A stretch of 64,000 nt of DNA, taken from the IMG/VR virus record IMGVR_UViG_3300031760_004865, positions 1 through 64,000 of that record. One strand, given 5' to 3'. Below, one piece after another: positions 6,662-20,440 of the stretch (positions are counted from its first letter, which is position 1; the number at the start of each line of letters is the position of its first letter). The notes under the pieces are model-generated. The model made no database searches. It saw only the letters and a list, made by a program, of their open reading frames with translations, and was not told the origin of the DNA. Both the position numbers and the translations under genes were made by a program. This DNA comes from a virus. Lineage: Duplodnaviria; Caudoviricetes.

Positions 6662-7169
6662 TATTTAATCCCTCCGCAATTATTTCATTAAGTCTTTCGA
6701 CAGAAATACTTTCTACTTCTGGTTTTATAATTAAATCTCCTTCAATTGGCATTCCATTAATAGTAGGTTTATTTGTTAAGTCATCGTAATTAATAGAAGG
6801 TTGCGCTGAAATATTTGTATCTATTTCACCAATAAACCAATTTCCATTTTCTCCAATATGAGGAGATATACCATTTTCGCCACGGAGACTTTCAAGCCAT
6901 TCGACTTCTGTTCCAACAAAACCATTATTAACAGCAATCTAATAAGCAGAATCACCATCACGACCGTTTCCACTATTATTATTATTATGCTTTGGAATCC
7001 AATTACCCTTACTATTAAGAATAAATTCTTCACCTGAAGTTAAAATAGTTGCTGTACTTCCTGGAGCACATCCATTACAAGGAAGATTTTCTTTATCTTC
7101 TGGAGTATCACATATGAAGTCTTGTATTCCATAAGTAATTTTTCCTTGATTAGAAACGATAGAAATCAT
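6654..7169 (-). CDS. Virion protein with GDSAY[Q]IAVNNGFVGTEVEWLESLRG motif, 171 aa under code 15
   Basis: TAG at 6939-6941 sits at the Q/E position of the common phage SAY(Q/E)IAV..GF.GT..EWL.SL.G motif; frame ends at TGA overlapping the next ATG. Confidence 0.75.
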
Positions 7170-7757
7170 TTACGAAATACCTCCTTTATTTTCATTCTCG
7201 TATAAATATAAAAACTATTTTATATTGTTTTACTAACTTTGCCCTAATTTTATTCAAAATTTTGAAGAGTCATTTTTGATTTTGGGTTGTCGGAGGTGCC
7301 GCCCCTGGCCGGCCGTGCGAATTGCTTTTCCGAACGGAAAAAAAATGAATAAAAAAATAGCCCCTATAAATCTCATAATCTGCTATCTTAAGCCCTCCAC
7401 TGGCGGTTACATTTATTGCCCCAGTGCGTCAACACCTCCAAGGGAAGCAGAATATTTGATTTATAAAGACTATTTTTTCGGTCATCCCAGAAACCATTAT
7501 CTCTTCTTTAAAACCGGACTTACTTCCTAAGTCCTAGGATGCCATGTGCTTATTTAGGTGAGAGAAACCTTTTTGTAATATAGTAATTTTGTAGAGTAAG
7601 CTACAAGAAAGTTTCGGACTTTCAACCGCCAGAATAGTGTGAGTATATCTCCAAAGTTCCACGGAACACTCTTTAAACGATGGCGCCGCTTTATTCAAGC
7701 AACATCCTAATCTGGATTTAATCATATGCGCTATATAGTTTCTATGTATATAGCGAG

Positions 7758-8617
7758 CTGGGGTAGATGGAATCGGACCATCCCGGCGGGAGTTTGCACA
7801 AACTCTCCCATGAATTAAATCTTTAGCCAATCTTCATCAGATATTTTTTTGATGTCATCTTTTTTGCGAGGAAGAGAATAACTATCACACCATTTCCTAA
7901 TAGCATTATCAGTTCTTCCATATAATTCTCCTATTTTTGTGAAAGGTAATTCTCTAATTAATTTTTTTAATTCTTCACGAGTTGGTTTATCCTCAGGATG
8001 AATAGATTTTTTATAACAATCCCAACATTTTATTGCTTGTGAAGTTATTGGTTTTCCACATTCGATGCATTTATTAACTTTTTCAAGCATTTTTTCTTTT
8101 CTTTTAGGAGACTCTATTGTAATATAATTATCTAATATAGATTCATCAATCATTCCTAGAATTTTATCTATTTCATAATCTTTGCCATATATAGCATTTA
8201 GATTATTACTTGAATAAGTATCAGGTTCTCCTAATCGAATAAATTTATTTTTATTAGTTTCAGTACATAATTCAATAGGAATTAAATATCCTTTATTTTC
8301 CCAATGAGTATAAAAGAAATCAATTTGACCTATATAATTATGAAATTCACTTTGATTCCAATTATGAGTTACTACAGTAAAAGAAATTCTATTATTAGTT
8401 TCTGGATGAGCAGTTTTACACTGAATCCTATATAATTTATCTTTTATTTCTGCAATAAAATCATAACGACTTGATGGATTTGTTGGCTGTGATAAAACTA
8501 TTCCCCTTTCGCAAAACTGCATCTGACACCAAAGTTCTGTTAACTGACCTAACTGATTTGAAATATTCATTTCGCGTTTCAGCAAAGTCCCGTGCCCTAC
8601 CACTAGGCTATACCCCA
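7758..8617 (-). tRNA. tRNA-Gln(UUG), interrupted at 36/37 by a 789 nt insert (7794-8582)
   Basis: 5' half tggggtatagcctagtggtagggcacgggactttg (8617-8583); 3' half actcccgccgggatggtccgattccatctaccccag (7793-7758); acceptor and anticodon stems pair fully. Confidence 0.9.
7815..8570 (-). CDS. PD-(D/E)XK homing endonuclease (I-Ssp6803I/PDDEXK_5-like) with Zn-ribbon and HTH, inside tRNA-Gln
   Basis: GQLTELWC...SSRYDFIAEIKDKLYRIQCKT...IDFFY motif; CIECGK...KCWDC; ATG 12 nt inside the insert. Confidence 0.8.
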   Translation of the reverse strand: MNISNQLGQLTELWCQMQFCERGIVLSQPTNPSSRYDFIAEIKDKLYRIQCKTAHPETNNRISFTVVTHNWNQSEFHNYIGQIDFFYTHWENKGYLIPIELCTETNKNKFIRLGEPDTYSSNNLNAIYGKDYEIDKILGMIDESILDNYITIESPKRKEKMLEKVNKCIECGKPITSQAIKCWDCYKKSIHPEDKPTREELKKLIRELPFTKIGELYGRTDNAIRKWCDSYSLPRKKDDIKKISDEDWLKI

Positions 8618-8624
8618 TTATAAC

Positions 8625-8739
8625 AAGACACTTTCAAAAATATTGATCTACCATTTGATCTACATTTGCTATTGGCGCAAAAGATGGGAATCGAACCCAC
8701 AACACTTATCTTGAAAGATAAAATTGCTGTTTGTGTCTT
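8625..8739 (-). ncRNA. Circularly permuted tRNA-like RNA A (T arm first, acceptor closed by loop, then D arm)
   Basis: gtgggttcgattcccat-cttttgc-GCCA-ata-gcaaatg-ta-gatcaaatggtagatc; ends aagacac/gtgtctt pair; ACAGCAA bulge. Confidence 0.7.
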
Positions 8740-8742
8740 AAA

Positions 8743-8821
8743 CGGCTTTGGTAGGAGTCGAACCATACACCTCCCAAAAACAACTGGGCGTACTTCCGGT
8801 TTAAACATATACTACAAAGCC
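8743..8821 (-). pseudogene. Degenerate tRNA (Asn-like)
   Basis: Perfect acceptor ggctttg/caaagcc and ttcgact T loop, but the anticodon loop is not 7 nt and the T stem has an extra base. Confidence 0.5.
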
Positions 8822-8829
8822 AAAATACT

Positions 8830-8945
8830 AAACACTATATAACTCACCGGCCGCGCTGCCGTTGCGCCACGTCCCCATGAATGGGGACGACAAGACTCGA
8901 ACTTGTAACCTGCTGGTCCCATGAGAGTAATTGCTGTTAGTGTTT
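8830..8945 (-). ncRNA. Circularly permuted tRNA-like RNA B
   Basis: acaagttcgagtcttgt-cgtcccc-a-ttcat-ggggacg-tg-gcgcaacggcagcgc-g-gccgg; ends aaacacta/tagtgttt pair; ACAGCAA bulge. Confidence 0.75.
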
Positions 8946-8948
8946 AAA

Positions 8949-9084
8949 TCGGAGTGGCGAGATTCGAACTCGCGGCCTCGTGATCATCCAGTTGGAAGTG
9001 CTGGCCTTCCTTTACACTTTATGTATAAAATAACCGTATAACTGGCCCAAATCACGCGCTCTAGCCAAACTGAGCCACACCCCG
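8949..9084 (-). tRNA. tRNA-Pro(UGG) with a 61 nt ORF-less anticodon-loop insert (8986-9046)
   Basis: cggggtgtggctcagtttggctagagcgcgtgatttgg | insert | gatcacgaggccgcgagttcgaatctcgccactccga. Confidence 0.9.
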
Positions 9085-9104
9085 ATAACAAGGGACTTCT
9101 ATTG

Positions 9105-9176
9105 TGGGAAAAATCGGAATTGAACCGATATCTTAAACTTAAAAGGTTTATGCCTGAACCATTAGGCTATTTTCTC
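9105..9176 (-). tRNA. tRNA-Lys(UUU), enclosed by an ACAGCAA-bulged stem (9090-9206)
   Basis: taaac-ct-ttt-aa-gttta anticodon arm; atcgg-ttcaatt-ccgat T arm. Confidence 0.85.
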
Positions 9177-9250
9177 TATTAGAAAGAATTTTGCTGTATG
9201 TCCCTTTATCTTATAAATATATTATATCATATTTTTTTTTGAAAATCAAG

Positions 9251-10387
9251 TTAAATCATATATTTTTGAACGAAACTTCTATCAATTTTCTTGAAGATAA
9301 TTTTCTTTGGAGCAAGTGCTTGCTTTGCTAAAGCAATAAGTTTCTTTTGCTCTTCGGCATCTTCAATATCATAATAATAATCTTCATCTATCAGTTGATC
9401 TATATTAATCAAATCAACTGGATAAGTCATCTCACCGTTCTCTGTAATGATATGAGATGGATTAATTGTAAACCAAACACTACTCGGCAAATTAGTATTT
9501 TTGCTAAAGCCCCAAGCACGAAGACACTCTTCTCTATCACTAAATACATCAAGTCTATATGCCGGAGCCTTAAATTCCATACCATTCACTGCGATATAAA
9601 CAATATCAAAATCAGTATCAGTTCTGGCGATATTCAAATCGGCAAGTGTTTCGGCAAGTGTATAACCTTGATTAAGTTCAAAAGTAATTGCTCTCAAATA
9701 ATCATAAGTCATGTATATAGAATTGGCAAGAGTTACGATATTTTCAATTTCATCCCAATATTCAGGATTCAAATTATCAATCATATATTCTCTTACTTCT
9801 TCTGCTTTTGGAGGAAGAATTTCAAAATGATAATGAAATCTACCTGGCCTATCCAAAAGGTAAGCGTTAAGTTTTCTGACTTCATTACAAGTGATAATAA
9901 AAAGTTTCTTTCCACCATCAATGCCGTCAAATAAACTCAACATTTCTTCCTGCGGTTCGTGATGGTCATCATCCTGTCTAAAAGTCTTTTCAAACTCATC
10001 AAAAAGAACAACACATTCCTGTTCGATTGAAGCAAGGAAATCATCAATGCCGGGGATATAATCACTCACTACGACTACTGGATAACCAAGTGCCCCAGCT
10101 TTTTCGGCAAGAACTCTCATAAACATTGACTTGCCAATTCCTTTTTGTCCGCTAAGAATAAGACCAAAATTACGATCTGCTAACTGAAAAGATTTCAAAA
10201 CTTTATCTACTTTTTCAGCATGATTACCGTAGACTTTCTCAGTTACTTTGAAATCATTCCTTGTTTTTAGAAAAAATCCAGTCATTTTATTGAACCCAAC
10301 TTCATAGGCTCCTACTGGAAGTTCGCTATATGTTTTGACACTATCATCATAAATCATATACATACTGCCGCTTTGAACTATATTCAT
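9251..10387 (-). CDS. AAA+ ATPase
   Basis: Walker A GQKGIGKS, Walker B VVLFDEFEK, sensor/Arg finger LLDRPGRF. Confidence 0.85.
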   Translation of the reverse strand: MNIVQSGSMYMIYDDSVKTYSELPVGAYEVGFNKMTGFFLKTRNDFKVTEKVYGNHAEKVDKVLKSFQLADRNFGLILSGQKGIGKSMFMRVLAEKAGALGYPVVVVSDYIPGIDDFLASIEQECVVLFDEFEKTFRQDDDHHEPQEEMLSLFDGIDGGKKLFIITCNEVRKLNAYLLDRPGRFHYHFEILPPKAEEVREYMIDNLNPEYWDEIENIVTLANSIYMTYDYLRAITFELNQGYTLAETLADLNIARTDTDFDIVYIAVNGMEFKAPAYRLDVFSDREECLRAWGFSKNTNLPSSVWFTINPSHIITENGEMTYPVDLINIDQLIDEDYYYDIEDAEEQKKLIALAKQALAPKKIIFKKIDRSFVQKYMI

Positions 10388-10402
10388 CTAATTTCTCCTT
10401 TC

Positions 10403-10633
10403 TTATACTTCTTGAATAGAAAGAGAATCTATTTTACTAAGTGGTATATAATATTCAATAGGTGGGAAATCATCAATTTTCATCCAAAATAAAGGAACAC
10501 CAGTCTCTTTATTCCAACCATATTCTAATGCTATATATGTAGTTGTTTTTTCACCTTGTTCTATTGATATTGAATAATACCTATAATATTTTCCCTTCTT
10601 TGTATACATTTTTCTCTCCTTCTTATTTAACAA
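10403..10633 (-). CDS. Hypothetical protein
   Basis: Short co-oriented ORF; true start probably the second Met. Confidence 0.45.
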   Translation of the reverse strand: MLNKKERKMYTKKGKYYRYYSISIEQGEKTTTYIALEYGWNKETGVPLFWMKIDDFPPIEYYIPLSKIDSLSIQEV

Positions 10634-10634
10634 A

Positions 10635-10706
10635 TGGGAATGAGAAGAATTGAACTTCTATGACCGCGTTATCAGCACGGCATACTCACCATTGTATTAC
10701 ATTCCC
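10635..10706 (-). tRNA. tRNA-Ile(GAU)
   Basis: Cloverleaf; ccgtg-ct-gat-aa-cgcgg. Confidence 0.9.
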
Positions 10707-10711
10707 AAAAA

Positions 10712-11246
10712 CACTCCGAGAGGGAATCGAACCCCCATTTCACAGTTACGTGCTATATTCTTACTTTTCTAACTCCTTTTCAAGAATTTTTTCAATTTCA
10801 TAATCAGAAGCCCAACACATAGTTTTTATAGGAGTTTTAGCTTCAAACCGTAAAGTTTTACTATCACTACATTGATTTACAGGAACTAAATAACCTTGTC
10901 CTTCCCAGCAGGTATAAAAATAATCTATTTCATCTTTTGTATAAGAAACTCTATTTGTTCTGCCGGTTTTAGCATTTCTTGTAGATTGACAAGAAAACAT
11001 TATAGCTTTTCCAACGGTATCTGCTAAATGACTTGTTTTACATTGGACTTTTATAAATTTAGTTCCTAAATCAATAACAAAATCATATCTACAAGGTCTT
11101 ATAGGTTGATTTACAATAAATCCCAATTTAGAAAAATCTATTTGACACTATAGTTCTGTAATTAGTCCTTTTGTAATCGTATCCATATTTTTTCAAAGTA
11201 AGTTATAATACGTATTCGTGTGGTTTATCCATTATCCTACCGGAGT
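10712..11246 (-). tRNA. tRNA-Arg(ACG), interrupted at 36/37 by a 463 nt insert (10748-11210)
   Basis: 5' half actccggtaggataatggataaaccacacgaatacg; 3' half aactgtgaaatgggggttcgattccctctcggagtg; D and anticodon stems slightly imperfect. Confidence 0.75.
10761..11186 (-). CDS. PD-(D/E)XK homing endonuclease inside tRNA-Arg, 141 aa under code 15
   Basis: MDTITKGLITEL[TAG]CQ aligns with KGLITELQCQ of the Thr-insert paralogue; PCRYDFVID...KVQCKT. Confidence 0.85.
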
Positions 11247-11466
11247 ATAAGGGAAATCTGCGCCAACAGATTCCCCCAGGGCCGTAATATAATTGGCGTT
11301 ATATACGGTTTTCGTGTTTATCGGGAAAACACCGACTTAATTTCATCCCCAGTGGAATGATTTTAAGCCAAACCCGCACGCGCGTACCTCTCAACTCGTA
11401 TTCTACCTCGCCTACTATGTAGGGCGTGTCCTACCCTTCGTACTAATATAGACGTTTTTGAGAGAG

Positions 11467-11539
11467 CGTTCCCGAGAGGACTCGAACCTCTAATCCCAGA
11501 CTTAGAAGGACTGTGCCTTATCCCTTAGGCTACGGGAAC
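11467..11539 (-). tRNA. tRNA-Arg(UCU)
   Basis: Cloverleaf; cagtc-ct-tct-aa-gtctg. Confidence 0.9.
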
Positions 11540-11543
11540 AGCT

Positions 11544-11936
11544 TCATATATGATATTTATGAAAATCGTATTGCCACTCTTTATTATCTTTTGGGCCATC
11601 GGCATAAAATAACTCTTCGTCATTTACTTTTTCCGAATAGACAGTAATTGTATCTTTTCCATATAAATATTCAAATTTAGAATAAGTCCGACTTTTACAA
11701 TTCATAAGCGCAGGATCGGAAAGGATTTCTTCATATAATTGCTGAGTAATCATTGATTCATGCACTTTACTATCAGTAACAATTCTGAAAAGATATTTTA
11801 CCTGAACGTTTTCTTTTTCATTAGTTGGCGGCATAATTACCATTGCCATATATAAAGTCTCAGGAACTAATTCAAATTCTACTTCTTGTAAGCTGCGATA
11901 AAAATTCTGCGGCACTTCTTTCAAATACATTAACAT
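11544..11936 (-). CDS. Hypothetical protein
   Basis: 130 aa ORF with GAGG SD. Confidence 0.55.
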   Translation of the reverse strand: MLMYLKEVPQNFYRSLQEVEFELVPETLYMAMVIMPPTNEKENVQVKYLFRIVTDSKVHESMITQQLYEEILSDPALMNCKSRTYSKFEYLYGKDTITVYSEKVNDEELFYADGPKDNKEWQYDFHKYHI

Positions 11937-11949
11937 CTCATTTTCCTCC

Positions 11950-12279
11950 TTATGCTATATATTTATATCCATAATGAGTAAGCAAGTGTTCTATATTATG
12001 TCTTCCTACTGGATTCATTGAATGGATTGAGAAAGCACCAATTTCAATGCCCTTTTCTACAATAAACTTAGCGAAATCATACCCTGTCTTCTCCTGCCCT
12101 AAGTCGTGGTCAAAACTTATATATAAGTCTTCATACCGCATATCCTCATTGAAATTAGCAAGGTAAAAGATAGCATCTTGATATGTTTTTGCTACATAGT
12201 AAGTATCAACTATTTTACAAAAATTCTTAGATGGCTTTCTCTCATCATCAAGCCATAAACCATATTTGAATTGAGCCAT
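11950..12279 (-). CDS. Cyclic-phosphate-processing receiver-like (cREC) domain protein
   Basis: LWLDDER...ISFDHDLG..KTGYDFAKFI...IHSMNPVGRHNI pattern. Confidence 0.75.
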   Translation of the reverse strand: MAQFKYGLWLDDERKPSKNFCKIVDTYYVAKTYQDAIFYLANFNEDMRYEDLYISFDHDLGQEKTGYDFAKFIVEKGIEIGAFSIHSMNPVGRHNIEHLLTHYGYKYIA

Positions 12280-12336
12280 TTTCTTTTACCCCTTTCTCAT
12301 TTACTATATATATTATAACATTTTTTTTATAAAAAA

Positions 12337-13482
12337 TCAACCAAAAACTTCTTCTTCATCTTCATTATTTTCAGTATCATTTTCTTCTTCTTCATCCTCA
12401 GTTTCTTCTTCTTCATCTGAGTATGAAATTTCTTCTCCTGCTAAAGAATCTTCTTCGTCTACCTCTTCTTCAAGATCTGATTCATCATTGATATATTCAA
12501 TGTCATCATCATCTATATTTAATTCTTCATTATCATTATTATTATAATCTTCTTCTTCTTCGTTTTCTTCTTCGGTCCAATAACGTCTCGCACCAGCAGG
12601 TGTTCTGTAATCAACGTCACTAATTCTGATTCCATTCTCAGGATTACTTGCGTGAGTTACTGTGCCGTCGCCGTTATAAATGGTAACGTGACCAATACGA
12701 CCTTCATCATTATAATAATAAAGAATATCCCCTGCTTGTATATCATCTAAATCTACTTCTTCTCCGCCTTCTGCTTGTTCGGCAGCAGTTCTTCCAATAC
12801 TAATTCCCATATCAGAAAATACTGCCTGAGTAAATCCAGAGCAGTCAGCACCATTTGTTAGAGATTCCCCTCCCCAAACATATGGATTACCTACAAATTG
12901 TTGAGCGTATTTTACAATGGAAGAACCAGTTGTATCTCCAGAAGTAGTAGTGGTATGTCTGACTGTTTCGCCAGTTTCTTCATCTTCTTCTTCGTAATAA
13001 TAAACTGTTTCATCTGCTTCTTCATCATAGTAATAATACACTTCGGGCACTTCTTCATCTTCATCATAATAATAAGATGAATCATAGTATGCTTCTTCTG
13101 GAATATCTTCTTCGTCTTCATTATAATAATAACTGTAATTATAATTATCATCATAGTCATCACTATAACTGTAATTATAAAGACTGTCATCTCCGTTATT
13201 ATAACTCTCATTTGAGTCATAAACATGATATTCAAAATCATAGGCGTTTATCCAACCATAAGAATCAAGAGTAATACAAACCTTTGCCCAATCACCTTTC
13301 TTTTCTACGACTTCAATTTCTTGTCCGCCATAGACTTTATCAAAGGTGCGAGATTCTTTATTTGGTTCTGCATGAACTTCTAATTCTTTCGGCCAGATAT
13401 ACGCCGTTACATAATCAGCATATATAGGTGTTGTAAGAGATAGTGTAAATATAAATGATATTATAGTAATTAGTTTCTTCAT
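12337..13482 (-). CDS. Secreted SH3 + NlpC/P60 cell-wall peptidase with acidic low-complexity linkers
   Basis: Signal peptide; SH3-like block; GNPYVWGG..DCSGF...GHV..Y...HAS. Confidence 0.85.
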   Translation of the reverse strand: MKKLITIISFIFTLSLTTPIYADYVTAYIWPKELEVHAEPNKESRTFDKVYGGQEIEVVEKKGDWAKVCITLDSYGWINAYDFEYHVYDSNESYNNGDDSLYNYSYSDDYDDNYNYSYYYNEDEEDIPEEAYYDSSYYYDEDEEVPEVYYYYDEEADETVYYYEEEDEETGETVRHTTTTSGDTTGSSIVKYAQQFVGNPYVWGGESLTNGADCSGFTQAVFSDMGISIGRTAAEQAEGGEEVDLDDIQAGDILYYYNDEGRIGHVTIYNGDGTVTHASNPENGIRISDVDYRTPAGARRYWTEEENEEEEDYNNNDNEELNIDDDDIEYINDESDLEEEVDEEDSLAGEEISYSDEEEETEDEEEENDTENNEDEEEVFG

Positions 13483-13534
13483 CTTAACCTCCTTGTTTAA
13501 GGGAGGGCAGGTAATTGACTAATTGACTGGGTAA

Positions 13535-13609
13535 GGTGGCCGGTGGGACTCGAACCCGCGAACTCCGGTTCCACAGACCGGCGTGTTAACCAACTACACT
13601 ACGGCCACC
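13535..13609 (-). tRNA. tRNA-His(GUG)
   Basis: ccggt-ct-gtg-ga-accgg; G-1 and C73 present. Confidence 0.92.
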
Positions 13610-13708
13610 AAAATTGAGAAAAGAAAGGGCGCTATAAAAACGCCCCATTAATGATTTAAATTATTAGTGATTTTATATATGTATCCCATATAAAATCACC
13701 GAGGGGGG

Positions 13709-14266
13709 TTAGGGCCATTCTCCTAAGGGCTTCCCCAGCTTGCCAACTTCAACATCAGTACAATAAGCGACACCGCCACCGTTTATACTTTCAAAATCTT
13801 CAAAAAGCTCTGCGGCAAGATCCTGATATAGTGTACTGATTACGCCGTGAGGGTCATTCAAATTATCATTGAAGAACTGAACTACGCAATTCTTGAATAC
13901 TACATAGGTAAGAGGGATAAACCAATAACCATCTGCGGCAGGGCAAACACTGTAAGCATAAACCGGACTCTTCTCAAACAAAGTATCAAACAGTTCCTTG
14001 GCAGAAGTGAAAGCACGATTTGAGAACGGGCCATCAACACTAATTTTAAGAGTTACATTGCCAAACTTCTTCTCTTCTGGAAGAACCTTTGTAAGAGCAG
14101 TTGCCTTGTCTCCGTTATTAGTAGAAATTACTACTGAAGGGCCATCACCTTTTGTATTAAAATCTACATTAAGGGCAATCTGTGGGTCAGCATCAAAAAG
14201 TGCTGTAAGTTTATTCACATAAGTTACCCAAGGTGAGGAAATTTTAAGTCTTACTTCATTACTCAT
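13709..14266 (-). CDS. Hypothetical protein
   Basis: 185 aa ORF with AAGGAG SD. Confidence 0.6.
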   Translation of the reverse strand: MSNEVRLKISSPWVTYVNKLTALFDADPQIALNVDFNTKGDGPSVVISTNNGDKATALTKVLPEEKKFGNVTLKISVDGPFSNRAFTSAKELFDTLFEKSPVYAYSVCPAADGYWFIPLTYVVFKNCVVQFFNDNLNDPHGVISTLYQDLAAELFEDFESINGGGVAYCTDVEVGKLGKPLGEWP

Positions 14267-14316
14267 TTTTTTTGTTTCTCCTTTAACTCTTTTTTATTTT
14301 CCTTTTGGAAGAAACG

Positions 14317-14399
14317 CGGAGAAAGGGACTCGAACCCTTGCGACGCTAATGCGCCCTAAGAGATTAGCAATCTCTCCTCTTCACCACTTGAGTATCTCC
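14317..14399 (-). tRNA. tRNA-Ser(GCU)
   Basis: agaga-tt-gct-aa-tctct, long variable arm, G73. Confidence 0.92.
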
Positions 14400-14644
14400 G
14401 CTTATAAAAAAACCACAGACAAGAAAACCAACTTTGAGGAATGATGTAAGTCTCAAGCCTAGAGGGTAAAGAAATCTGTGGGAATATTCTTATCATTACT
14501 AAGAAAAATTATGATATGAAAAAAGGATGCCAACCCAGAGCCTGCCCTGGCGTTATAAAAAGGGAAGGAAACAAAACAAACAAAAGAAAGAGAGATGAGG
14601 GCAGGATTTCCTTCGTTGGGTCTTTATCTCATTATCATAAGAAA

Positions 14645-14717
14645 TGGCTTGTCTTGGTTCTGCCCCAAGCTCCCTGGTTCTTCAGACCAGTGCTTTCACT
14701 AGATTAGCTTACAAGCC
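14645..14717 (-). tRNA. tRNA-Phe(GAA) with atypical T loop GGCAGAA
   Basis: ctggt-ct-gaa-ga-accag; acceptor ggcttgt/acaagcc. Confidence 0.8.
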
Positions 14718-14915
14718 GAGTGCAAGAGTCCCAGATATAACTCTTGCTGAAAGTTTTCTATCGGTAGTAACTTTCAAAATCTACGGGGCAGTACTTTTTG
14801 TTCAGAATCTCGTTAAAGTATCTCCAGAACAAAAATCATCCGTCATAAAAAATTGAGCAAACCTCTGAGCGATTATCTGAGTTATCTGGCTCCTACAGAT
14901 AACCTTTTCTCATAC

Positions 14916-14989
14916 TACCCCTGGAGGGATTTGAACCCCCAAATTTTACATCCTAAGTGTAACGCCTATTCCTGTTCGGCTACAAGGGT
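14916..14989 (-). tRNA. tRNA-Leu(UAG), short variable loop
   Basis: ttaca-ct-tag-ga-tgtaa. Confidence 0.85.
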
Positions 14990-14993
14990 ATTT

Positions 14994-15224
14994 TTATTTT
15001 TCCATAAACTCTTTTACTTCATCTAAAAACTTGTCTACGTTAGGATGTTGTTCAACTTCCATAGTTAAGATTTGTGTCAAATCAAGACTAAATAATCCCA
15101 TAATAGATTTTCCATCAACAACATATCTACCAGAAAGTATATATATAGGAAAATCATAATTGTTACAAATACAACTAAATCTTTTTACTTTGTCAATAGA
15201 ATTTATACTGATACGATAAAGCAT
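14994..15224 (-). CDS. HPr-like phosphocarrier family protein
   Basis: VVDGKSIMGLFSLDL (Ser46 region); no evident His15 motif. Confidence 0.75.
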   Translation of the reverse strand: MLYRISINSIDKVKRFSCICNNYDFPIYILSGRYVVDGKSIMGLFSLDLTQILTMEVEQHPNVDKFLDEVKEFMEK

Positions 15225-15251
15225 TTTGTCCTCCTCTCTTAATTTTCAATC

Positions 15252-15321
15252 AATACACATTTGGAGTCTGTCAACTCCAATTTCTTGAATGGTGACAAAA
15301 TTATTATGCTGTATGTGTATT
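15252..15321 (-). ncRNA. ACAGCA-bulged stem element with non-tRNA cargo
   Basis: aatacacat/atgtgtatt stem, ACAGCAT, inner hairpin ttggagt/actccaa. Confidence 0.45.
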
Positions 15322-15324
15322 AAG

Positions 15325-15849
15325 TGGGCCGTGATGGAGTTGCACCACCCGAGTCCGAAGACAGCAGATTTAATCTTGATCCGAGATTTGAACTCGGTAT
15401 TGATATGTTTGAAATCCTTGATTATTTTTTTGTTGGTTCAAAACGAAGTGAAATTTGTTTTTTATTTCCTGCTAAAAGTAAATCTTTCACAGGAATATTC
15501 CACATATTATATTCATTATCAACACAAAATAAATAATCAAGCTCAGGATGATTAAGAATAGAATCATAAACTTCACCTTTAGTTCCACCAGTAGAAACTA
15601 AATAAATTTCTTTATCTTTTGTTGCTGTTGCTTTACACTGGACGGTGTAAAACTTACTATCTTTCTCAATCACCAAATCATACCACTGAGTGTCATTCAT
15701 CGGGATGGATATTGTATAACCTTTAACTGTAAAATAGTTAATTGCCATACTCAGTCCTAACCTTCCCAATGTTTTACGGTTAATTTCTGTCATATCAAAT
15801 CTCCTATTCAAGCCAGTCTGCCCCGCTACTACTTACGGAATAACAACCC
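15325..15849 (-). tRNA. tRNA-Tyr(GUA), interrupted at 34/35 by a 441 nt insert (15373-15813)
   Basis: 5' half gggttgttattccgtaagtagtagcggggcagactg; 3' half taaatctgctgtcttcggactcgggtggtgcaactccatcacggccca; Tyr-type variable arm. Confidence 0.85.
15422..15793 (-). CDS. PD-(D/E)XK homing endonuclease inside tRNA-Tyr
   Basis: AGGAG SD; GRLGLSMAI...PMNDTQWYDLVIE...TVQCKAT. Confidence 0.8.
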   Translation of the reverse strand: MTEINRKTLGRLGLSMAINYFTVKGYTISIPMNDTQWYDLVIEKDSKFYTVQCKATATKDKEIYLVSTGGTKGEVYDSILNHPELDYLFCVDNEYNMWNIPVKDLLLAGNKKQISLRFEPTKK

Positions 15850-16052
15850 GTGTGGGTGGATTGGACTCTACCGTCCTAGGGCTACCACCAGTCACCCAGG
15901 CTTTTCCTCGCAAGCAAAAACCCCAAACGCAAAACCTAATCAACGCGCTTACAATTAGACTCGACCTTGGCCTTCGGTCTCCTGTTCTTTCACCATCAAG
16001 AACAGTGAAGCCGTTTGATATTGCTTGGTAGCTAATCAAGCGAATATCTAAC

Positions 16053-16126
16053 TGACGGGGCGAGGATTCGAACCTCGGAATGCTGGGATATGAACCCAGT
16101 GTCTTAGACCACTTGACGACCCCGCT
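16053..16126 (-). tRNA. Initiator tRNA-fMet(CAU)
   Basis: ctggg-tt-cat-at-cccag with three G-C pairs; 1-72 mismatch. Confidence 0.88.
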
Positions 16127-16133
16127 ATGAGTG

Positions 16134-16484
16134 TCAGATATACTCAAATTTATCATACATCTGACGATATTCTTTAACATGATTATGAGTTACAGTTCCA
16201 ATAAGAGCTTCTTTATCGTGTTCTTCTTTGATATAAATACGAGCTGTATCACTCGTTATTGCTTGCCTACCTTTCGGGCGCGTTAATAATTTAGCACAAT
16301 TTTCAATTCGTTTTGAATCAGTAGTGTTTAATTCCATTCTTCCACCCGCGGCAACTACTACAAAAATAGGTTTGCCATTTTCAAACACAGGTTTTGTTTT
16401 AGAAATATTACCAAACCATTTCACCGAATATTCTTCATATACATCAGAAACAATCAAATGAGTTTTTAGCATTACTTCTGACAT
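16134..16484 (-). CDS. Hypothetical protein
   Basis: 116 aa ORF coupled to the upstream ORF. Confidence 0.55.
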   Translation of the reverse strand: MSEVMLKTHLIVSDVYEEYSVKWFGNISKTKPVFENGKPIFVVVAAGGRMELNTTDSKRIENCAKLLTRPKGRQAITSDTARIYIKEEHDKEALIGTVTHNHVKEYRQMYDKFEYI

Positions 16485-16681
16485 TTTATTTTATCCTCTT
16501 CAATCAAAGATGAAAAGAAATCAAGTATTTCATCATTCATTTCTCTGGTGATTTTTGTTTCGCCCTGCGGCACATGCTTTGTCATATGATTAGGATTGTG
16601 TTCTTTCCAACAGGATAAAGAATGTTTAGCAATTTTCTCAGGATCTTCAAAACTTCTGTTACAAGTAGGACAAATATACAT
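16472..16681 (-). CDS. Small C2H2-type zinc finger protein
   Basis: YICPTCNRSF...IAKH..SC; GAAAGG SD; promoter directly upstream. Confidence 0.6.
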   Translation of the reverse strand: MYICPTCNRSFEDPEKIAKHSLSCWKEHNPNHMTKHVPQGETKITREMNDEILDFFSSLIEEDKIKCQK

Positions 16682-17057
16682 ATCATTTTTCCTTTCATTT
16701 GATATATATATTATATCAAAATTTTTTATAAAAATCAAATTACCGGTCTTTCACCGGTGGTTTTTAGTAGTTCCCTTCTACAATCAAACAGGTTTTACTT
16801 CTCTGTTCCGAAGTTAGAAAGAGAGGGTTTCTGTCGGGAGTGCAGTTTCAATCACTCGCATCCTTGATGGGTTCAACGACTCGTAACTGGGGTAGCTTAC
16901 GCGGATTTGTATAGTCGTTTGGCACTAGGACTTTCACCTTGTTAAGTTACGTTCTCAATACTATACTTACCGCCGCCCACTGTGGTGTCTCCCCACTGCT
17001 TCCCATCGTACAGGCTTTATTTTCTTCTCCGGCTTTTAATGCTTGCCTACCGACAAA

Positions 17058-17180
17058 TTATGCGGGTAAGGATTTGCACCTTACATGATTGAAATTTCTC
17101 GCCTTACTTAGCTTATTGCAAATCACATAAGTAAGGAATCATCTTACGCAATATACGTCTACCTATTCCGCCACCGCATA
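17058..17180 (-). ncRNA. tRNA-Leu-like RNA with degenerate anticodon arm and about 50 nt branched variable region
   Basis: tatgcgg/ccgcata acceptor, Leu-type D loop gcggaataggtagacg, gtaagg-tgcaaat-ccttac; inner hairpin ccttactta/taagtaagg. Confidence 0.6.
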
Positions 17181-17250
17181 CAGTCTTACCGATTCGAACG
17201 GCTCCTATCCTTTTCAGGGGATCGCTGCTATCCTCTACACCACAACTATA
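17180..17250 (-). pseudogene. Degenerate tRNA (Phe-like GAA)
   Basis: ccg-ttcgaat-cgg T arm; anticodon loop not 7 nt; weak acceptor. Confidence 0.4.
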
Positions 17251-17252
17251 AA

Positions 17253-17325
17253 TAGCCCGTGCGAGAATCGAACTCGCGTCTCCGGCTTGAAGGGCCAGTG
17301 TCACTTACCGCTAGACTAACGGGCC
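17253..17325 (-). tRNA. tRNA-Glu(UUC)
   Basis: ctggc-cc-ttc-aa-gccgg. Confidence 0.9.
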
Positions 17326-17446
17326 AAATATGCCAGTTTAAAACTGGCAGATCTTTTTGATGTCTAAAATAAGGAAAAAAGATCTAAAACCTCATAGTCC
17401 ATCACTTTATTTTACCCAGGAGGATTGGACGGCCTCCTGTATATAG

Positions 17447-17527
17447 CGCTCGCGGTTGGACTTGCACCAACTTCCTCATAGCAGTATCCTCAATTAAGGC
17501 GCCCTCTTATTTGGACTTACTATGAGC
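17447..17527 (-). pseudogene. tRNA-like element, isotype undetermined
   Basis: gctcata/cgcgagc acceptor-like stem and gttgg-tgcaagt-ccaac T arm; no canonical anticodon loop. Confidence 0.4.
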
Positions 17528-17640
17528 GGGTTACTCATACTCCGCACACGGCATATATAATGCCGATTTTGTTTTGGGAGATTCGGCAAACTCCTCATCT
17601 ATATTAGCCCAATGGACTGTACCTCACTTTCGTAAGATTT

Positions 17641-17775
17641 TTACTGATTCATATTGTAAGATTCAACAGTTACAGTTCCAAACCGCTCTTTGATGAACTC
17701 AACATCCTTATAGGATCTCACAAAGGTCATATGGCGTCTCTTGTCATCATCTACGTAATAAACAACATACATCAT
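17641..17775 (-). CDS. Small hypothetical protein (44 aa)
   Basis: AAGGAG SD, promoter upstream, MMYVVYYVDDDKRRHMTFV... Confidence 0.5.
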   Translation of the reverse strand: MMYVVYYVDDDKRRHMTFVRSYKDVEFIKERFGTVTVESYNMNQ

Positions 17776-17874
17776 AGGCTTTTCTCCTTTTCTTTATGAG
17801 TTCTTTATTTATCTTACATATATATTATATCAAAAATTTTTATAAAAATCAAATCAAAGAACTTTTTAGTTCAG

Positions 17875-17948
17875 TACTTCTGGTAGGATTCGAACCTACA
17901 ATTTTCTGGGTTTGAGCCAGTTGCGTCTGCCGGTTGCGCCACAGAAGC
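17875..17948 (-). tRNA. tRNA-Leu(CAA), short variable loop
   Basis: actgg-ct-caa-ac-ccaga. Confidence 0.85.
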
Positions 17949-17952
17949 ATAA

Positions 17953-18025
17953 TGGTGATTATAGGACTTGAACCTATGGCCCCCTGCTTGTAAGGCAGAT
18001 ACTCTCCCAGCTGAGCTAAACCACC
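17953..18025 (-). tRNA. tRNA-Val(UAC)
   Basis: Canonical cloverleaf. Confidence 0.93.
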
Positions 18026-18034
18026 AGAAGAAAA

Positions 18035-18107
18035 TGGAGTCGGAGGGACTCGAACCCTCTACCTCTTCCTTGCAAGGGAAGCGCTCTCCCAGGTGAGCTA
18101 CGACCCC
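18035..18107 (-). tRNA. tRNA-Ala(UGC)
   Basis: Canonical cloverleaf with G3-U70. Confidence 0.93.
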
Positions 18108-18322
18108 AAAAATAAGGAACCAATGCAGGCATCAGCCCCTCGGAAAACCTTGCGGTTTTTGATCCAAAATGCCCGATATTGCGAACTTGGCTCGGGCAGG
18201 CCGACTCATTTAATTTCTCCTCTTCCTTTTGGAAGGGATCTGTCGCTGTGACGTAACAGCGAATCCCCTGGCTCATACGTCCTAACGGGCGGGTCCACCC
18301 AAATAAAAGCATTACTGCTTCA

Positions 18323-18394
18323 CGGGACGGCAGGGATTCGAACCCCGATAGTCAGGTTAACAGCCTGAAGTCCTCACCGTTGGACGACCGCCCC
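18323..18394 (-). tRNA. tRNA-Asn(GUU)
   Basis: tcagg-ct-gtt-aa-cctga. Confidence 0.92.
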
Positions 18395-18448
18395 AGATCT
18401 GGTAAGTTGAGTTTAACGTCCCAGGCACTTACCAAGCCACTGGACCAA

Positions 18449-18521
18449 TGACTCCTGCCAGATTCGAACTGACGACTCCAGCTTGAGGGACTGGTGACTT
18501 CAACCACTTGTCGAAGGAGCC
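18449..18521 (-). tRNA. tRNA-Glu(CUC)
   Basis: ccagt-cc-ctc-aa-gctgg. Confidence 0.88.
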
Positions 18522-18994
18522 TTTTTATTTCTCAAATTTATAATATTTTTACTTCCTGTTGTAGGTAGCTATTGATTACAATTAGGACAAACCCATCTAA
18601 GATTTTCTAATCTATCATCATTATTTATTCCATTTATATGATCCAAAATCAAAGTTAATGGTTTATCATTCCATATAGGGAGCTATCCACAAATAGAACA
18701 TTTATAAGGAACATATTCTCCATTTATAAAATATTTTCTGAGAGTTTTTTGATGAGCTGTTGAGCCTTTAATAAAAATATTTTCTGGAGTTCTCTAAACT
18801 TTATCTTCTGATTTTTTAGATAAAACAAAATGATCTGTAGATAATTGTAATTTTTCAATACGCTCTTTTATTTTTGAATAAGTAGAGCTACTCTTTGTAA
18901 GATACCCACATTTTTTTAGAACATCGGCATAAGAAAGACTTTTCTAAACGAACTAAGAAAATTCTTCATCTGAAAACTAATCAACTTTAGCCAT
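18500..18994 (-). CDS. HNH endonuclease, 164 aa under code 15 (6 in-frame TAG)
   Basis: CSICG[Q]...LILDHINGINNDDRLENLRWVCPNCNQ[Q]LPT; absent from the ORF track. Confidence 0.85.
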
Positions 18995-19416
18995 TTTTTT
19001 TCCTTTCTTTATCTTATATATATATTATATCAAAATTTTTTTAAAAAATCAAATTAAGTGCTTTTGGCAGGGGCAGTTGCGTTTCCGGTATTTACACTCA
19101 TAACAAACAGTATCTAAACAGCTGTTTTTAGACTTATAAGTTATTTAGCAGGCTTCTACTGCGCCCCCCAGAAACACTTAATTTGATTTTTATATCAGGG
19201 GGCTTTATACTGCCCCCACGGTATCAAGTTCCTTTCTGTTCTCATCAGTGAGGAAAAACTGAAAGCTATCTCTTACATTCTGTCTCCGAAATTCAACTTC
19301 GGTCATATCATAATATTCTTCGCAAGTTTCATAAAGGTCAAAATCATCAAACATAATTTTTTCTCCTTTCTTAACTTTCTATAAATATTATAACATATTT
19401 TTTTTAAAAAATCAAG

Positions 19417-19686
19417 TTAGTCAATTAGTGAATCGGCAATCCATCCGCCCGTATCCAACAGACGCCAATTATAGCCATCTCTTAGAACAGTGCTTACTTC
19501 TGTGCCGTAGTCGTTTTCAAAAGTATAAACGGGGTCACCATTATATACTTTATAAGCAACGTCAAAACCAAATCCGGGGCCGTATCTTACATTAGCGTAA
19601 TTTACAGTCTCATTATAAACATACCGCTTTTTTCCGCCCCATACATTTTCAAGGGCTTCATCACTCAACTTATAGACCTGCTCCAT
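19417..19686 (-). CDS. Double-glycine leader + SH3b-like small protein
   Basis: MEQVYKLSDEALENVWGG then ANVRYGPGFGFDV...GWI. Confidence 0.65.
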   Translation of the reverse strand: MEQVYKLSDEALENVWGGKKRYVYNETVNYANVRYGPGFGFDVAYKVYNGDPVYTFENDYGTEVSTVLRDGYNWRLLDTGGWIADSLID

Positions 19687-19836
19687 ATTTTTATCTCCTT
19701 TTTCTCTTTTGGAAAAAACAGAAAAGTTACTTTCCGCGAGGTCGGTTACATTTTATACCGTTTTACTACATCTAACATAGTTAGGACTTATTGTTTCCTA
19801 CCCTCTCGCTAGGCTTCCATTCGCTTTTCTGTTGAG

Positions 19837-19909
19837 CGATCCCGACGGGTGCTGCCCCCGCTATCCCGTGCGTGACAGGCACGTGACTCTGCTGACCGTC
19901 CCCAGGACC
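19837..19909 (-). tRNA. tRNA-Asp(GUC) with atypical D arm and T loop GGCAGCA
   Basis: cgtgc-ct-gtc-ac-gcacg; G73. Confidence 0.8.
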
Positions 19910-20162
19910 AAAACCAGTTTCCCTCGTAAGGCGGCACTGGAAAACCGACTGTACAGTTTGAATTCTTTCAGTAATAACCCGCCTAAAGAACTCACAAAGT
20001 TTGGGGATAGTATTAGTCTTGTCGGTTCCTTGTTGAACTCGGGTGGCTTAACTATCATCGTCATTCCAAAGTCAGAGGAGCAGTTTTAGGTCGCACTCCA
20101 CATCAGACCTTATTTACGAGGAGCGTTGCTTCTCCCCGCCTATCTCCAAAAGATAGGATAAA

Positions 20163-20237
20163 TACGCCGCCTGGGACTCGAACCCAGCATCTTAGGTTTA
20201 TAAGACCTCTGCATAAAACCAACTATGCTAGCGGCGC
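20163..20237 (-). tRNA. tRNA-Ile(UAU)
   Basis: gaggt-ct-tat-aa-accta; canonical T arm. Confidence 0.88.
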
Positions 20238-20440
20238 TCACTCCTTTTTCTCTTTCTTATACTCTTGGAATTTTAAGCAACCCTCAATCCATTCTTCATC
20301 CGTCGGGTCGCACCTTTGAGAACCACACATTTGGCAATTCTCTTTTATAAAATCATAATTTTCTATCATATAATTCTCCTAAAATAAAAATTGCTTACTA
20401 TTACACTTAATGGCGGCGTCGAAGCAAGACCGAACCAGAA

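What the first reader, a model, noticed from the sequence alone, without database searches (positions are those of the whole stretch)
8949..9084. A tRNA inside a tRNA: the 61 nt tRNA-Pro intron is itself an acceptor-stem/T-arm mimic
Seen: the insert reads GCCAGUU-auacgguuau-[UUUAUAC auaaa GUGUAAA]-GGAAG gccagca CUUCC-AACUGGA-U. Its first 7 nt pair with the 7 nt directly after a 5-bp/7-nt-loop hairpin (6 pairs, G1.A72 mismatch), then comes one discriminator U, then exon 2. This is exact tRNA 1-7/49-73 geometry, and removing positions 1-73 restores the 7 nt loop UU-UGG-GA. Known: bacterial RNase P cuts 5' of G+1 of acceptor/T minihelices, and Firmicute RNase Z cuts 3' of the discriminator in CCA-less precursors. 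Inference: host tRNA end-processing enzymes could excise the intron, leaving 3'-OH/5'-P exons for an ATP-dependent RNA ligase. That would be a splicing route that is neither ribozyme nor EndA/BHB, and I do not recognise it as described.
Basis: partly seen in the sequence, partly recalled or inferred. Interest (0 to 1): 0.95.

Follow-up and report, generated by a model that had tools for sequence, protein, structure and literature searches.

The report
tRNA-shaped intron inside phage tRNA-Pro
A phage proline tRNA gene is split in its anticodon loop by a 61-base insert folded like the top half of a tRNA; it belongs to a widespread, barely described class of phage introns that ordinary tRNA-trimming enzymes plus an RNA ligase may remove, which would be a new way of splicing tRNA, but no RNA data show this yet.

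Summary
Window 8949-9084 (-) is a tRNA-Pro(UGG) gene with a 61-nt insert at 8986-9046. The insert has a 7-position closing helix (6 pairs, G1.A72), an abutting 5-bp/7-nt-loop hairpin and one discriminator U. Removing it restores the loop UUUGGGA found in intronless orthologues of two related phages.

It is not a one-off. A structure-only scan of about 1.4 Mb of related phage tRNA clusters found 22 candidates, about 18 of them convincing. In each, the insert runs exactly from acceptor nt 1 to N73 or N73-CCA. This scan has reported the same class on other DNA, and Devoto et al. 2019 noted one such Lak-phage intron as 'enigmatic'.

New here is a CCA-less variant. The Pro and Tyr inserts end at the discriminator in a phage whose own tRNA genes encode no CCA (0/15). 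The Tyr insert has an orthologue with compensatory changes in its helices and in the outer anticodon stem.

The RNase P + RNase Z + ligase route fits all boundaries, but it is inferred. I obtained no RNA data. No ligase lies in the 82-kb partial genome. Ligase genes in relatives are common, but not specifically in intron carriers. My confidence in that mechanism is about 0.4.

The parts
8949..9084 (-). tRNA-Pro(UGG) precursor gene, 136 nt, with no encoded CCA
   Evidence: Rfam tRNA match at 52 bits covering model positions 1-71. The fold gives a cloverleaf. It is the only tRNA-Pro in the 82-kb record.
9047..9084 (-). Exon 1 (38 nt), ending ...CGUGA-UUUGG
   Evidence: Sequence read-back and alignment to the intronless L001 tRNA-Pro.
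8986..9046 (-). 61-nt tRNA-shaped insert (intron); the boundary is 36/37, or 37/38 if shifted by the ambiguous G
   Evidence: Removing it restores the loop UUUGGGA seen in the intronless orthologue.
9040..9046 (-). Acceptor-like 5' strand, GCCAGUU
   Evidence: It pairs with 8987-8993 in 6 of 7 positions, with a G1.A72 mismatch.
9011..9039 (-). Variable middle: a 10-nt spacer plus a 7-bp/5-nt-loop hairpin
   Evidence: Fold. In other members this region ranges from about 8 nt to an 850-nt endonuclease gene.
8994..9010 (-). T-arm-like hairpin, GGAAG-GCCAGCA-CUUCC (5 bp, 7-nt loop of the GNCAGNA type)
   Evidence: The same loop type occurs in other nested units and in free-standing tRNAs of these phages.
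8986..8993 (-). Acceptor-like 3' strand AACUGGA plus discriminator U; no CCA
8949..8985 (-). Exon 2 (37 nt), starting GA-UCACG
15373..15813 (-). Second CCA-less tRNA-shaped insert (441 nt) in tRNA-Tyr(GUA) 15325-15849. It reads GCUUGAA ... PD-(D/E)XK endonuclease ORF ... CCGAG-UUCAAAU-CUCGG-AUCAAGA-U
   Evidence: The orthologue L101 8955-9394 shows compensatory changes.
14645..14717 (-). Free-standing tRNA (anticodon GAA) whose T-loop GGCAGAA is of the same unusual type as the insert's
   Evidence: Rfam tRNA match at 41 bits.
19837..19915 (-). Free-standing tRNA-like gene (anticodon loop CUGUCAC) with T-loop GGCAGCA

Best explanation
The 61-nt insert is an intron of the 'tRNA-shaped' class. 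It is a mobile module that keeps only the acceptor-stem/T-arm minihelix of a tRNA and sits in the anticodon loop of a working phage tRNA. Its first base is acceptor position 1 and its last base is the discriminator.

The most likely route has three steps. Host RNase P cuts 5' of G+1, leaving a 3'-OH on exon 1. Host RNase Z cuts after U73, because no CCA follows, leaving a 5'-phosphate on exon 2. The two halves stay together through the outer cloverleaf and are sealed by an ATP-dependent 3'-OH/5'-P RNA ligase, phage- or host-encoded.

What is shown: the anatomy, the exact register, the class, the compensatory evolution, and the match between tail type and tRNA-gene style. What is inferred: the identity of the nucleases, the ligation, and that splicing occurs at all.
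For: 1. Structure-defined units. I defined a unit as a 7-bp acceptor, an abutting 5/7/5 hairpin, and N73 (+CCA if present). Such units leave exactly 7 loop nucleotides with U33 in all 12 NCCA-tailed units among ARAGORN's intron calls and in the window's Pro unit.

2. Independent scan. A second scan required only that ARAGORN recognise the spliced product as a tRNA. It gave 22 candidates; four of them (L082, L111, L121 Pro, L122) look like chance.

3. Intronless relatives. The predicted mature loops equal those of close intronless relatives, for example L094/L096 at 72/75, L102/L093 at 73/77 and L125/L121 at 69/74 identical. The window's Pro matches L001.

4. Tail type against tRNA-gene style. 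The window encodes CCA in 0/15 tRNAs, and its Pro and Tyr inserts end at N73. L101 encodes CCA in 1/13, and its Tyr insert also ends at N73. Phages rich in encoded CCA (80-100%) have NCCA-tailed inserts. By phage, Fisher's test gives about 0.04.

5. Orthologous Tyr inserts, window against L101. The acceptor-like helix changes at 4:69 U-A to C-G and at 5:68 G-C to C-G. The T stem changes at 49:65 C-G to U-A. The outer anticodon stem changes at 27:43 and 29:41, on both sides of each pair. Both the inner and the outer structure are therefore under selection.

6. Only the minihelix is conserved. This is the minimal substrate of RNase P and RNase Z (established knowledge: McClain, Guerrier-Takada and Altman 1987; Pellegrini et al. 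2003). The middle ranges from about 8 nt to an 850-nt endonuclease gene.

7. Ligases. N-terminal OB + RNA_ligase proteins like Naegleria NgrRnl (a 3'-OH/5'-P sealer) are encoded in most relatives, often within 10 kb of the tRNA cluster. RtcB is absent from 20 of 20 records.

8. Gene content. The interrupted genes are the only Pro and Tyr tRNAs in the record.
Against:
- No RNA ligase, RtcB or RNase Z-like gene lies in the 82-kb record, though it is only about 45% complete.
- The ligase family is equally common in tRNA-rich phages without tRNA-shaped introns (10/15), so its presence does not discriminate.
- NgrRnl-type ligases are known as sealers of duplex nicks, not of anticodon-loop breaks (my own knowledge).
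- CCA-tailed members need an endonuclease that cuts exactly after CCA. That is known for only a few RNase Z/BN enzymes.
- Two phages poor in encoded CCA (L104 at 7/19, L136 at 3/19) carry ACCA-tailed inserts.
- The Pro unit has a G1.A72 mismatch and a non-canonical T-loop.
- The Pro insert has no homologue of its own, and close relatives lack it. It could be a recent insertion that has not yet been purged.
- A 7-nt remainder is also what any clean insertion without target duplication would leave.
Confidence: 0.4

Rival explanations
1. The insert is an unspliced selfish element. A tRNA-like mobile element has landed in a dispensable phage tRNA gene. RNase P and RNase Z merely release the mini-RNA and leave two dead tRNA halves, and nothing is ligated.
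For: Both closest relatives have intact, intronless tRNA-Pro genes. The insert has no homologue elsewhere. No ligase lies in the record. Phage tRNAs are usually dispensable (general knowledge). A clean insertion would by itself explain the 7-nt remainder.
Against: Five of about 22 tRNA genes in the cluster are interrupted, and they include the only Pro, Tyr, Gln and Thr genes. In the orthologous Tyr pair, the outer anticodon stem changed on both sides of two pairs and kept pairing. The exons of all members still make tRNAs that ARAGORN recognises, up to 96% identical to intronless relatives. Homologous Leu(UAA) inserts persist in diverged phages (L083, L093), with compensatory acceptor changes.
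Confidence: 0.2
2. The insert is spliced, but by other proteins. One possibility is a dedicated, as yet unrecognised phage endonuclease or maturase that reads the minihelix or its conserved GNCAGNA loop. Another is a metal-independent nuclease followed by host RtcB.
For: The loop motif G-N-C-A-G-N-A is conserved across otherwise unrelated inserts, which suggests specific recognition. Many ORFs in these phages have no known function. Host RtcB cannot be excluded.
Against: The same loop occurs in ordinary free-standing tRNAs of these phages with many different anticodons, so it is a T-loop variant and not an intron signal. Other members use canonical UUCNANU loops. No EndA (own record only) or RtcB (20 related records and the own record) was found in the phage DNA searched. 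The tail type follows tRNA-gene style, as expected if the general tRNA 3'-end machinery acts.
Confidence: 0.2
3. The inner unit is the product. A small tRNA-like RNA, acting as a decoy, primer or regulator, is expressed by hitch-hiking in a tRNA transcript, and the fate of the outer tRNA is secondary.
For: The neighbourhood is full of other tRNA-like RNAs: YrlA-like permuted elements at 8617-8730 and 8828-8944. The unit would be released with mature tRNA-like ends.
Against: The middle of the unit is not conserved in length or sequence, and it can be replaced by an endonuclease gene. Placement in intergenic spacers of the tRNA array would serve this purpose equally well, as the free-standing members show. 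This reading does not explain selection on the outer anticodon stem.
Confidence: 0.1
4. The insert is a self-splicing or self-cleaving ribozyme intron, or an archaeal-type bulge-helix-bulge intron.
For: Bacterial and phage tRNA introns known so far are group I introns. The PD-(D/E)XK endonucleases in the sister introns belong to the I-Ssp6803I family, which in Synechocystis sits in a group I intron (PMC3384342 lists I-Ssp6803I).
Against: At 61 nt the insert is far too short for a group I core. No ribozyme family matches at E<=1 in 7000-22000. Exon 1 ends in G, not U. No 3-4-3 bulge-helix-bulge can form without breaking the strong CCAGUU/AACUGG helix. No EndA was found.
Confidence: 0.03

Closest known systems
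'Enigmatic' tRNA introns of Lak megaphages (Devoto et al. [quoted passage not shown] 4)
   Same: Both are short introns in the anticodon loop of a tRNA from a TAG-recoded gut phage. In both, the intron 'itself may encode a tRNA', and the boundary is fixed by comparison with intronless alleles.
   Different: That paper gave no mechanism, no class definition and no link to tRNA end-processing. The window's inserts lack the CCA tail. One window insert carries a homing endonuclease. The phage here is much smaller than Lak.
Group I introns in bacterial tRNA anticodon loops, e.g. Synechocystis tRNA-fMet intron encoding I-Ssp6803I
   Same: The location in the anticodon loop is the same. The sister introns in this window encode endonucleases of the same family (PF11645), and the elements are presumably mobile by homing.
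   Different: There is no ribozyme core: the insert is 61 nt and has no Rfam match. It cannot self-splice by the group I mechanism.
Archaeal/eukaryal tRNA introns (bulge-helix-bulge; EndA/Sen + RtcB or Trl1)
   Same: Both are protein-dependent tRNA introns at or next to position 37/38, where the exon halves are held together by the mature tRNA domain.
   Different: There is no BHB motif. No EndA (own record) and no RtcB (20 related records and the own record) was found in the phage DNA searched. The expected ends are 3'-OH/5'-P, not 2',3'-cyclic phosphate/5'-OH.
tRNA-like structures cut out by RNase P and RNase Z (MALAT1 mascRNA; mitochondrial 'tRNA punctuation')
   Same: In each case a tRNA-shaped module inside a longer transcript defines both cleavage sites through the ordinary tRNA end-processing enzymes.
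   Different: In those cases the flanks are not rejoined. Here the flanks are the two halves of another tRNA and would need ligation for that tRNA to work.
Phage tRNA anticodon-loop repair (T4 Pnkp + Rnl1) and Rnl5-type nick sealers (Naegleria NgrRnl, PDB 5cot)
   Same: A 3'-OH/5'-P ligase sealing a broken anticodon loop is an established phage activity. Relatives encode NgrRnl-like proteins.
   Different: In T4 the break is made by a host defence nuclease, not by intron excision. No ligase was found in this record, and sealing of tRNA loops by Rnl5 has not been shown.

Membership tests
tRNA-shaped (nested tRNA-like) introns of large phages | The insert lies inside the anticodon loop of an otherwise intact tRNA gene | tested here: met
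   Rfam tRNA match at 52 bits across 8949-9084 with the insertion in the loop; intronless orthologues exist.
tRNA-shaped (nested tRNA-like) introns of large phages | The first 7 nt form an acceptor-like helix with 7 nt near the 3' end | tested here: met
   GCCAGUU pairs with AACUGGA in 6 of 7 positions (G1.A72 mismatch).
tRNA-shaped (nested tRNA-like) introns of large phages | A 5-bp/7-nt-loop T-arm-like hairpin directly abuts the 3' acceptor strand | tested here: met
   GGAAG-GCCAGCA-CUUCC pairs in 5 of 5 positions. The loop type GNCAGNA is shared with L083, L092, L093, L103 and L136 and with free-standing tRNAs.
tRNA-shaped (nested tRNA-like) introns of large phages | Removing exactly the unit leaves a 7-nt loop with U33 that equals the loop of intronless relatives | tested here: met
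   The remainder is 7 nt. The loop UUUGGGA equals that of L001 and L084 tRNA-Pro.
tRNA-shaped (nested tRNA-like) introns of large phages | The unit ends in N73-CCA | tested here: not met
   The unit ends at U73 and GAU follows. It is a CCA-less variant, as are the window's Tyr insert and the L101 Tyr insert, all in phages whose tRNA genes lack encoded CCA.
Group I intron | A conserved P3-P9 ribozyme core (at least about 200 nt), matching Rfam Intron_gpI | tested here: not met
   The insert is 61 nt, and no match at E<=1 was found in 7000-22000.
Group I intron | The 5' exon ends in a U that forms a U.G pair in P1 | tested here: not met
   Exon 1 ends in G.
Bulge-helix-bulge (archaeal-type) tRNA intron | Two 3-nt bulges, separated by a 4-bp helix, carry the splice sites | tested here: not met
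   The MFE and centroid folds show an internal loop UGGG/AU and a 6-bp helix. The only 4-pair alternative (UUUG with UGGA, three of them wobbles) competes with that helix.
Bulge-helix-bulge (archaeal-type) tRNA intron | A splicing endonuclease EndA and RtcB are available | tested here: inconclusive
   PF01974 and PF01139 are absent from the partial phage record, and RtcB is absent from 20 related records. The host is unknown.
RNase P / RNase Z substrates (functional class) | A coaxial acceptor + T-arm minihelix with a 5' leader and a CCA-less 3' trailer | tested here: met
   A 12-position stack with 11 pairs. Exon 1 would act as the leader, and exon 2 as the trailer starting with G74.
RNase P / RNase Z substrates (functional class) | Actual cleavage 5' of nt 1 and 3' of nt 73 | not testable with these tools
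   This needs enzymes or RNA-end mapping.

The most novel reading that the evidence does not exclude
A third route of tRNA splicing exists in bacterial viruses. The intron is itself a tRNA-shaped module, the cell's own tRNA end-trimming enzymes (RNase P and RNase Z) make both cuts, and a 3'-OH/5'-P RNA ligase rejoins the anticodon loop. The CCA-less inserts in this window would then show that the 3' splice site follows whichever 3'-end maturation mode the host uses for ordinary tRNAs.
Probability: 0.4. Interest if true: 0.9.

Novelty: new variant of a known kind. Interest (0 to 1): 0.8.

Why it matters
All known tRNA introns are either self-splicing ribozymes (bacteria, organelles, phages) or bulge-helix-bulge introns cut by a dedicated endonuclease (archaea, eukaryotes). 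An intron that uses the universal tRNA end-processing enzymes by imitating their substrate would be a third solution. It would explain how endonuclease genes can invade tRNA genes without a ribozyme. It would also give phage RNA ligases a housekeeping role beyond repairing defence damage.

The class matters for annotation too. Standard tRNA finders miss these genes or give them the wrong anticodon. In this data set, ARAGORN called Pro, Thr or Trp where the structure-defined boundaries give Gln, Ile or Lys. That distorts inferences about codon use and stop-codon recoding in large phages.

The CCA-less variant offers a clean experiment: adding CCA after U73 should block excision in a Firmicute-type system.

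Tried and rejected
- **Hammerhead or other small ribozyme.** There is no GAAA/CUGANGA core, and no Rfam ribozyme match in 7000-22000.
- **Group I and BHB/EndA.** Both rejected; see the membership test.
- **Close homologues of the Pro insert.**
  - An exon-anchored gapped pattern found nothing in IMG/VR or in JGI metagenomes.
  - The 17-mer of the T-arm gave 8 hits, all unrelated GC-rich coding DNA.
  - A 23-mer found nothing in metagenomes.
  - blastn against GenBank phages gave only two short exon matches.
- **Ligase as discriminating evidence.** Rejected after the control: PF09414 is present in 10/15 tRNA-rich phages without tRNA-shaped introns.
- **Phage-encoded RNase Z.** No metallo-beta-lactamase match in 5 complete relatives or in the own record.
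- **Ro/RtcB context for the neighbouring YrlA-like RNAs.** No TROVE or RtcB gene in the record.
- **More CCA-less short introns.** Rfam scans of 15 loci poor in encoded CCA gave only two long tRNA hits in L146, and those carry a different, ACACAGCAA-type insert.
- **Literature.** Nine searches found no described mechanism. The library lacks most subscription journals.
- **ARAGORN false positives.** Several of its 'short introns' (L084 9080-9199, L090 9047-9170, L112 9538-9657) are not intron tRNAs. They are about 120-nt GGGG...ACCA tRNA-like RNAs.

Full report
**1. What is there**

The window is part of an 82-kb IMG/VR phage record, about 45% complete. It carries a minus-strand tRNA cluster between about 7.7 and 22 kb.

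Rfam's tRNA model matches 8949-9084 (-) over its whole length at 52 bits, with a 61-nt insertion in the anticodon loop. ARAGORN sees the gene only with introns allowed, and it mis-sets the boundary.

I read the parts back from the sequence:
- Exon 1 is 9047-9084, ending CGUGA-UUUGG.
- The insert is 8986-9046.
- Exon 2 is 8949-8985, starting GA-UCACG.

The MFE fold of the precursor contains the cloverleaf and these helices (z = -3.1).

A neighbouring AAA-ATPase gene led to a related phage, L001 (70% identity). There the syntenic tRNA-Pro(UGG) is uninterrupted, with loop UUUGGGA. A second relative, L082, also has intronless Pro, Gln, Tyr and Arg(ACG) genes. So the insert is a recent gain, and its removal must restore UUUGGGA. 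Because of a shared G, the boundary is either 36/37 or 37/38.

In shuffles of the insert, a minihelix of 11 or more of 12 pairs in a loop-restoring register appears in 0.4% of trials.

**2. It belongs to a class**

The four other interrupted tRNAs of the window (Gln, Arg, Tyr, Thr) carry PD-(D/E)XK homing-endonuclease ORFs of the I-Ssp6803I family, PF11645. An alignment of these proteins retrieved 80 loci from large IMG/VR phages. In about 45 of them the endonuclease gene sits inside a tRNA anticodon loop, with no room for a ribozyme.

In the 20-kb flanks, many short inserts proved to be complete or reduced tRNA-like units.

I tested this without using the loop length. A unit was defined only as a 7-bp closing helix, an abutting 5/7/5 hairpin, and N73 (+CCA if present).
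- In all 12 NCCA-tailed units, and in the window's Pro unit, the nucleotides left between the outer anticodon-stem strands number exactly 7.
- L090 uses a degenerate ACUA tail.
- A second, ARAGORN-independent scan required that the spliced product be called a tRNA with its anticodon at the junction. It gave 22 candidates of 43-861 nt; four of them (L082, L111, L121 Pro, L122) look like chance.
- The mature loops predicted this way equal those of close intronless relatives, for example 72/75, 73/77 and 69/74 identical.
- ARAGORN's own anticodon calls for these genes were often wrong by one or two bases.

**3. What is special here**

In most members the unit ends in N73-CCA. The window's Pro and Tyr units end at the discriminator.
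- The window's ordinary tRNA genes encode no CCA (0/15).
- Phages with NCCA-tailed units mostly encode CCA in 80-100% of their tRNA genes.
- The exceptions are L104 (7/19) and L136 (3/19).

The Tyr unit (15373-15813, 441 nt, canonical T-loop UUCAAAU) has an orthologue in L101, which is a complete phage with 1/13 CCA-encoding tRNA genes. That orthologue also ends at N73. A third Tyr insert at the same site, in L128, ends in ACCA. By phage, the association gives a Fisher p of about 0.04. That is suggestive, not strong.

The window and L101 Tyr precursors are about 90% identical. Their differences cluster in the acceptor-like strands and keep pairing:
- 4:69 changes from U-A to C-G.
- 5:68 changes from G-C to C-G.
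- 2:71 changes from C-G to U.G.
- 1:72 changes from G.A to A-U.
- The T stem changes at 49:65, from C-G to U-A.
- The outer anticodon stem changes on both sides at 27:43 and 29:41.

It also argues that the outer tRNA stays under selection.

The Pro insert itself has no detectable homologue.

Its odd loop, GCCAGCA, is not random. G-N-C-A-G-N-A recurs in nested units of L083, L092, L093, L103 and L136. It also recurs in free-standing tRNA genes with many anticodons, two of which lie in this window at 14645-14717 and 19837-19915. By count, the motif gave 32 hairpin-plus-acceptor hits, against 6-14 for permuted control motifs.

**4. Mechanism**

Only the acceptor/T minihelix is conserved. The middle ranges from a few nucleotides to an endonuclease gene. 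That minihelix is the minimal substrate of RNase P and RNase Z, and RNase Z of the B. subtilis type cuts after N73 only when no CCA follows (established knowledge).

The boundaries therefore sit exactly where these enzymes would cut, and the products would be exon 1 with a 3'-OH and exon 2 with a 5'-P.

Ligase evidence:
- Relatives encode N-terminal-OB + RNA_ligase proteins like Naegleria NgrRnl (PDB 5cot, E = 1e-24), often inside the tRNA cluster.
- One relative has an Rnl1.
- RtcB is absent from 20/20 records.

Against over-reading this:
- The ligase family is just as common in tRNA-rich phages without such introns.
- None is found in the window's own partial record.
- No phage RNase Z-like gene exists in the records searched.
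- CCA-tailed members need a precise cut after CCA.
- I could obtain no RNA data.

I put the RNase P/Z + ligase route at about 0.4, removal at the RNA level by any route at about 0.65-0.7, and an unspliced selfish insertion at about 0.2.

**5. Known or new**

Group I and BHB membership fail on defining features.

The only printed mention I found is Devoto et al. 2019 (PMC6784885). They called Lak-phage tRNA introns 'enigmatic' and noted that one 'itself may encode a tRNA'. A 2026 jumbo-phage review does not discuss them.

Earlier notes of this scan describe CCA-ended tRNA-shaped introns on other DNA and reach the same tentative mechanism. Those notes gave me the Devoto lead, which I checked. 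I do not count them as evidence.

What this window adds:
- the CCA-less variant;
- the match between tail type and tRNA-gene style;
- an orthologous pair with compensatory changes;
- the link to a non-canonical T-loop tRNA family;
- a negative control on the ligase argument.

Noticed in passing
window 14645-14717 (-) and 19837-19915 (-); L083 135-205, 1955-2024, 3565-3636; L099 7749-7822, 8962-9034; L101 13706-13776; L108 5285-5357; L118 4362-4432: Free-standing tRNA genes with a non-canonical T-loop GGCAGNA and many different anticodons (GAA, GUC, CCA, CAU, GAU, UAC, UUG, UGG). ARAGORN found the motif in only 2 of the 934 intronless tRNAs it called, and several of these genes (for example window 14645-14717) are absent from its calls. 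How such a T-loop folds is unknown.
   Followed up: partly
window 8617-8730 (-) and 8828-8944 (-); L001 12528-12648: Circularly permuted tRNA-like RNAs: T arm, closed acceptor, D arm, then a long terminal stem with an ACAGCAA bulge. They match Rfam YrlA weakly (36 and 29 bits, below the gathering score). Element A is conserved in the related phage. No Ro (TROVE) or RtcB gene lies in the record.
   Followed up: partly
window 7757-8617, ~10718-11250, 21354-22085 (-); L082-L129 loci: A second intron type carries a PD-(D/E)XK endonuclease ORF but no T-arm. The anticodon plus the first 7 intron nt pair with the last 10 intron nt, and the internal-loop motifs are conserved (for example CAAAC(U/C)U ... 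A(G/A)(C/U)AUUG). It is present in about 45 of 80 related loci.
   Followed up: partly
window 8740-8826 (-): An 87-nt element with a 7-bp closing helix GGCUUUG/CAAAGCC and a UUCGA-containing hairpin. It is not recognised as a tRNA and is absent from the relative L001.
   Followed up: no
L084 9080-9199, L090 9047-9170, L112 9538-9657: RNAs of about 120 nt, GGGG...ACCA, tRNA-like, with a GACAGCAAUUUUU motif. ARAGORN mis-calls them as intron-containing tRNAs.
   Followed up: no
L097 17979-18053: A 75-nt tRNA-shaped intron (GCCA tail) sits inside a suppressor tRNA(CUA) with loop CUCUAAA. The tRNA that would read the recoded stop codon is itself interrupted.
   Followed up: no
window 1-64000; L001 17878-17967; L082 1060-1152: No tRNA(CUA) was found in the window or in the rest of the 82-kb record, although its genes need TAG read as sense. 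Both relatives carry one.
   Followed up: no
L146 3112-3230 and 3323-3442: Two tRNAs with 31-49-nt anticodon-loop inserts of a different kind, containing GUGUCUUG...ACACAGCAAU. The motif resembles the terminal stems of the YrlA-like elements.
   Followed up: no
L112 11614-12238, L131 6871-7478, L140 10970-11410, L116 4234-4318: ROOL, GOLLD and RAGATH-1 hammerhead RNAs, as well as tmRNAs, lie inside the tRNA clusters of related phages.
   Followed up: no
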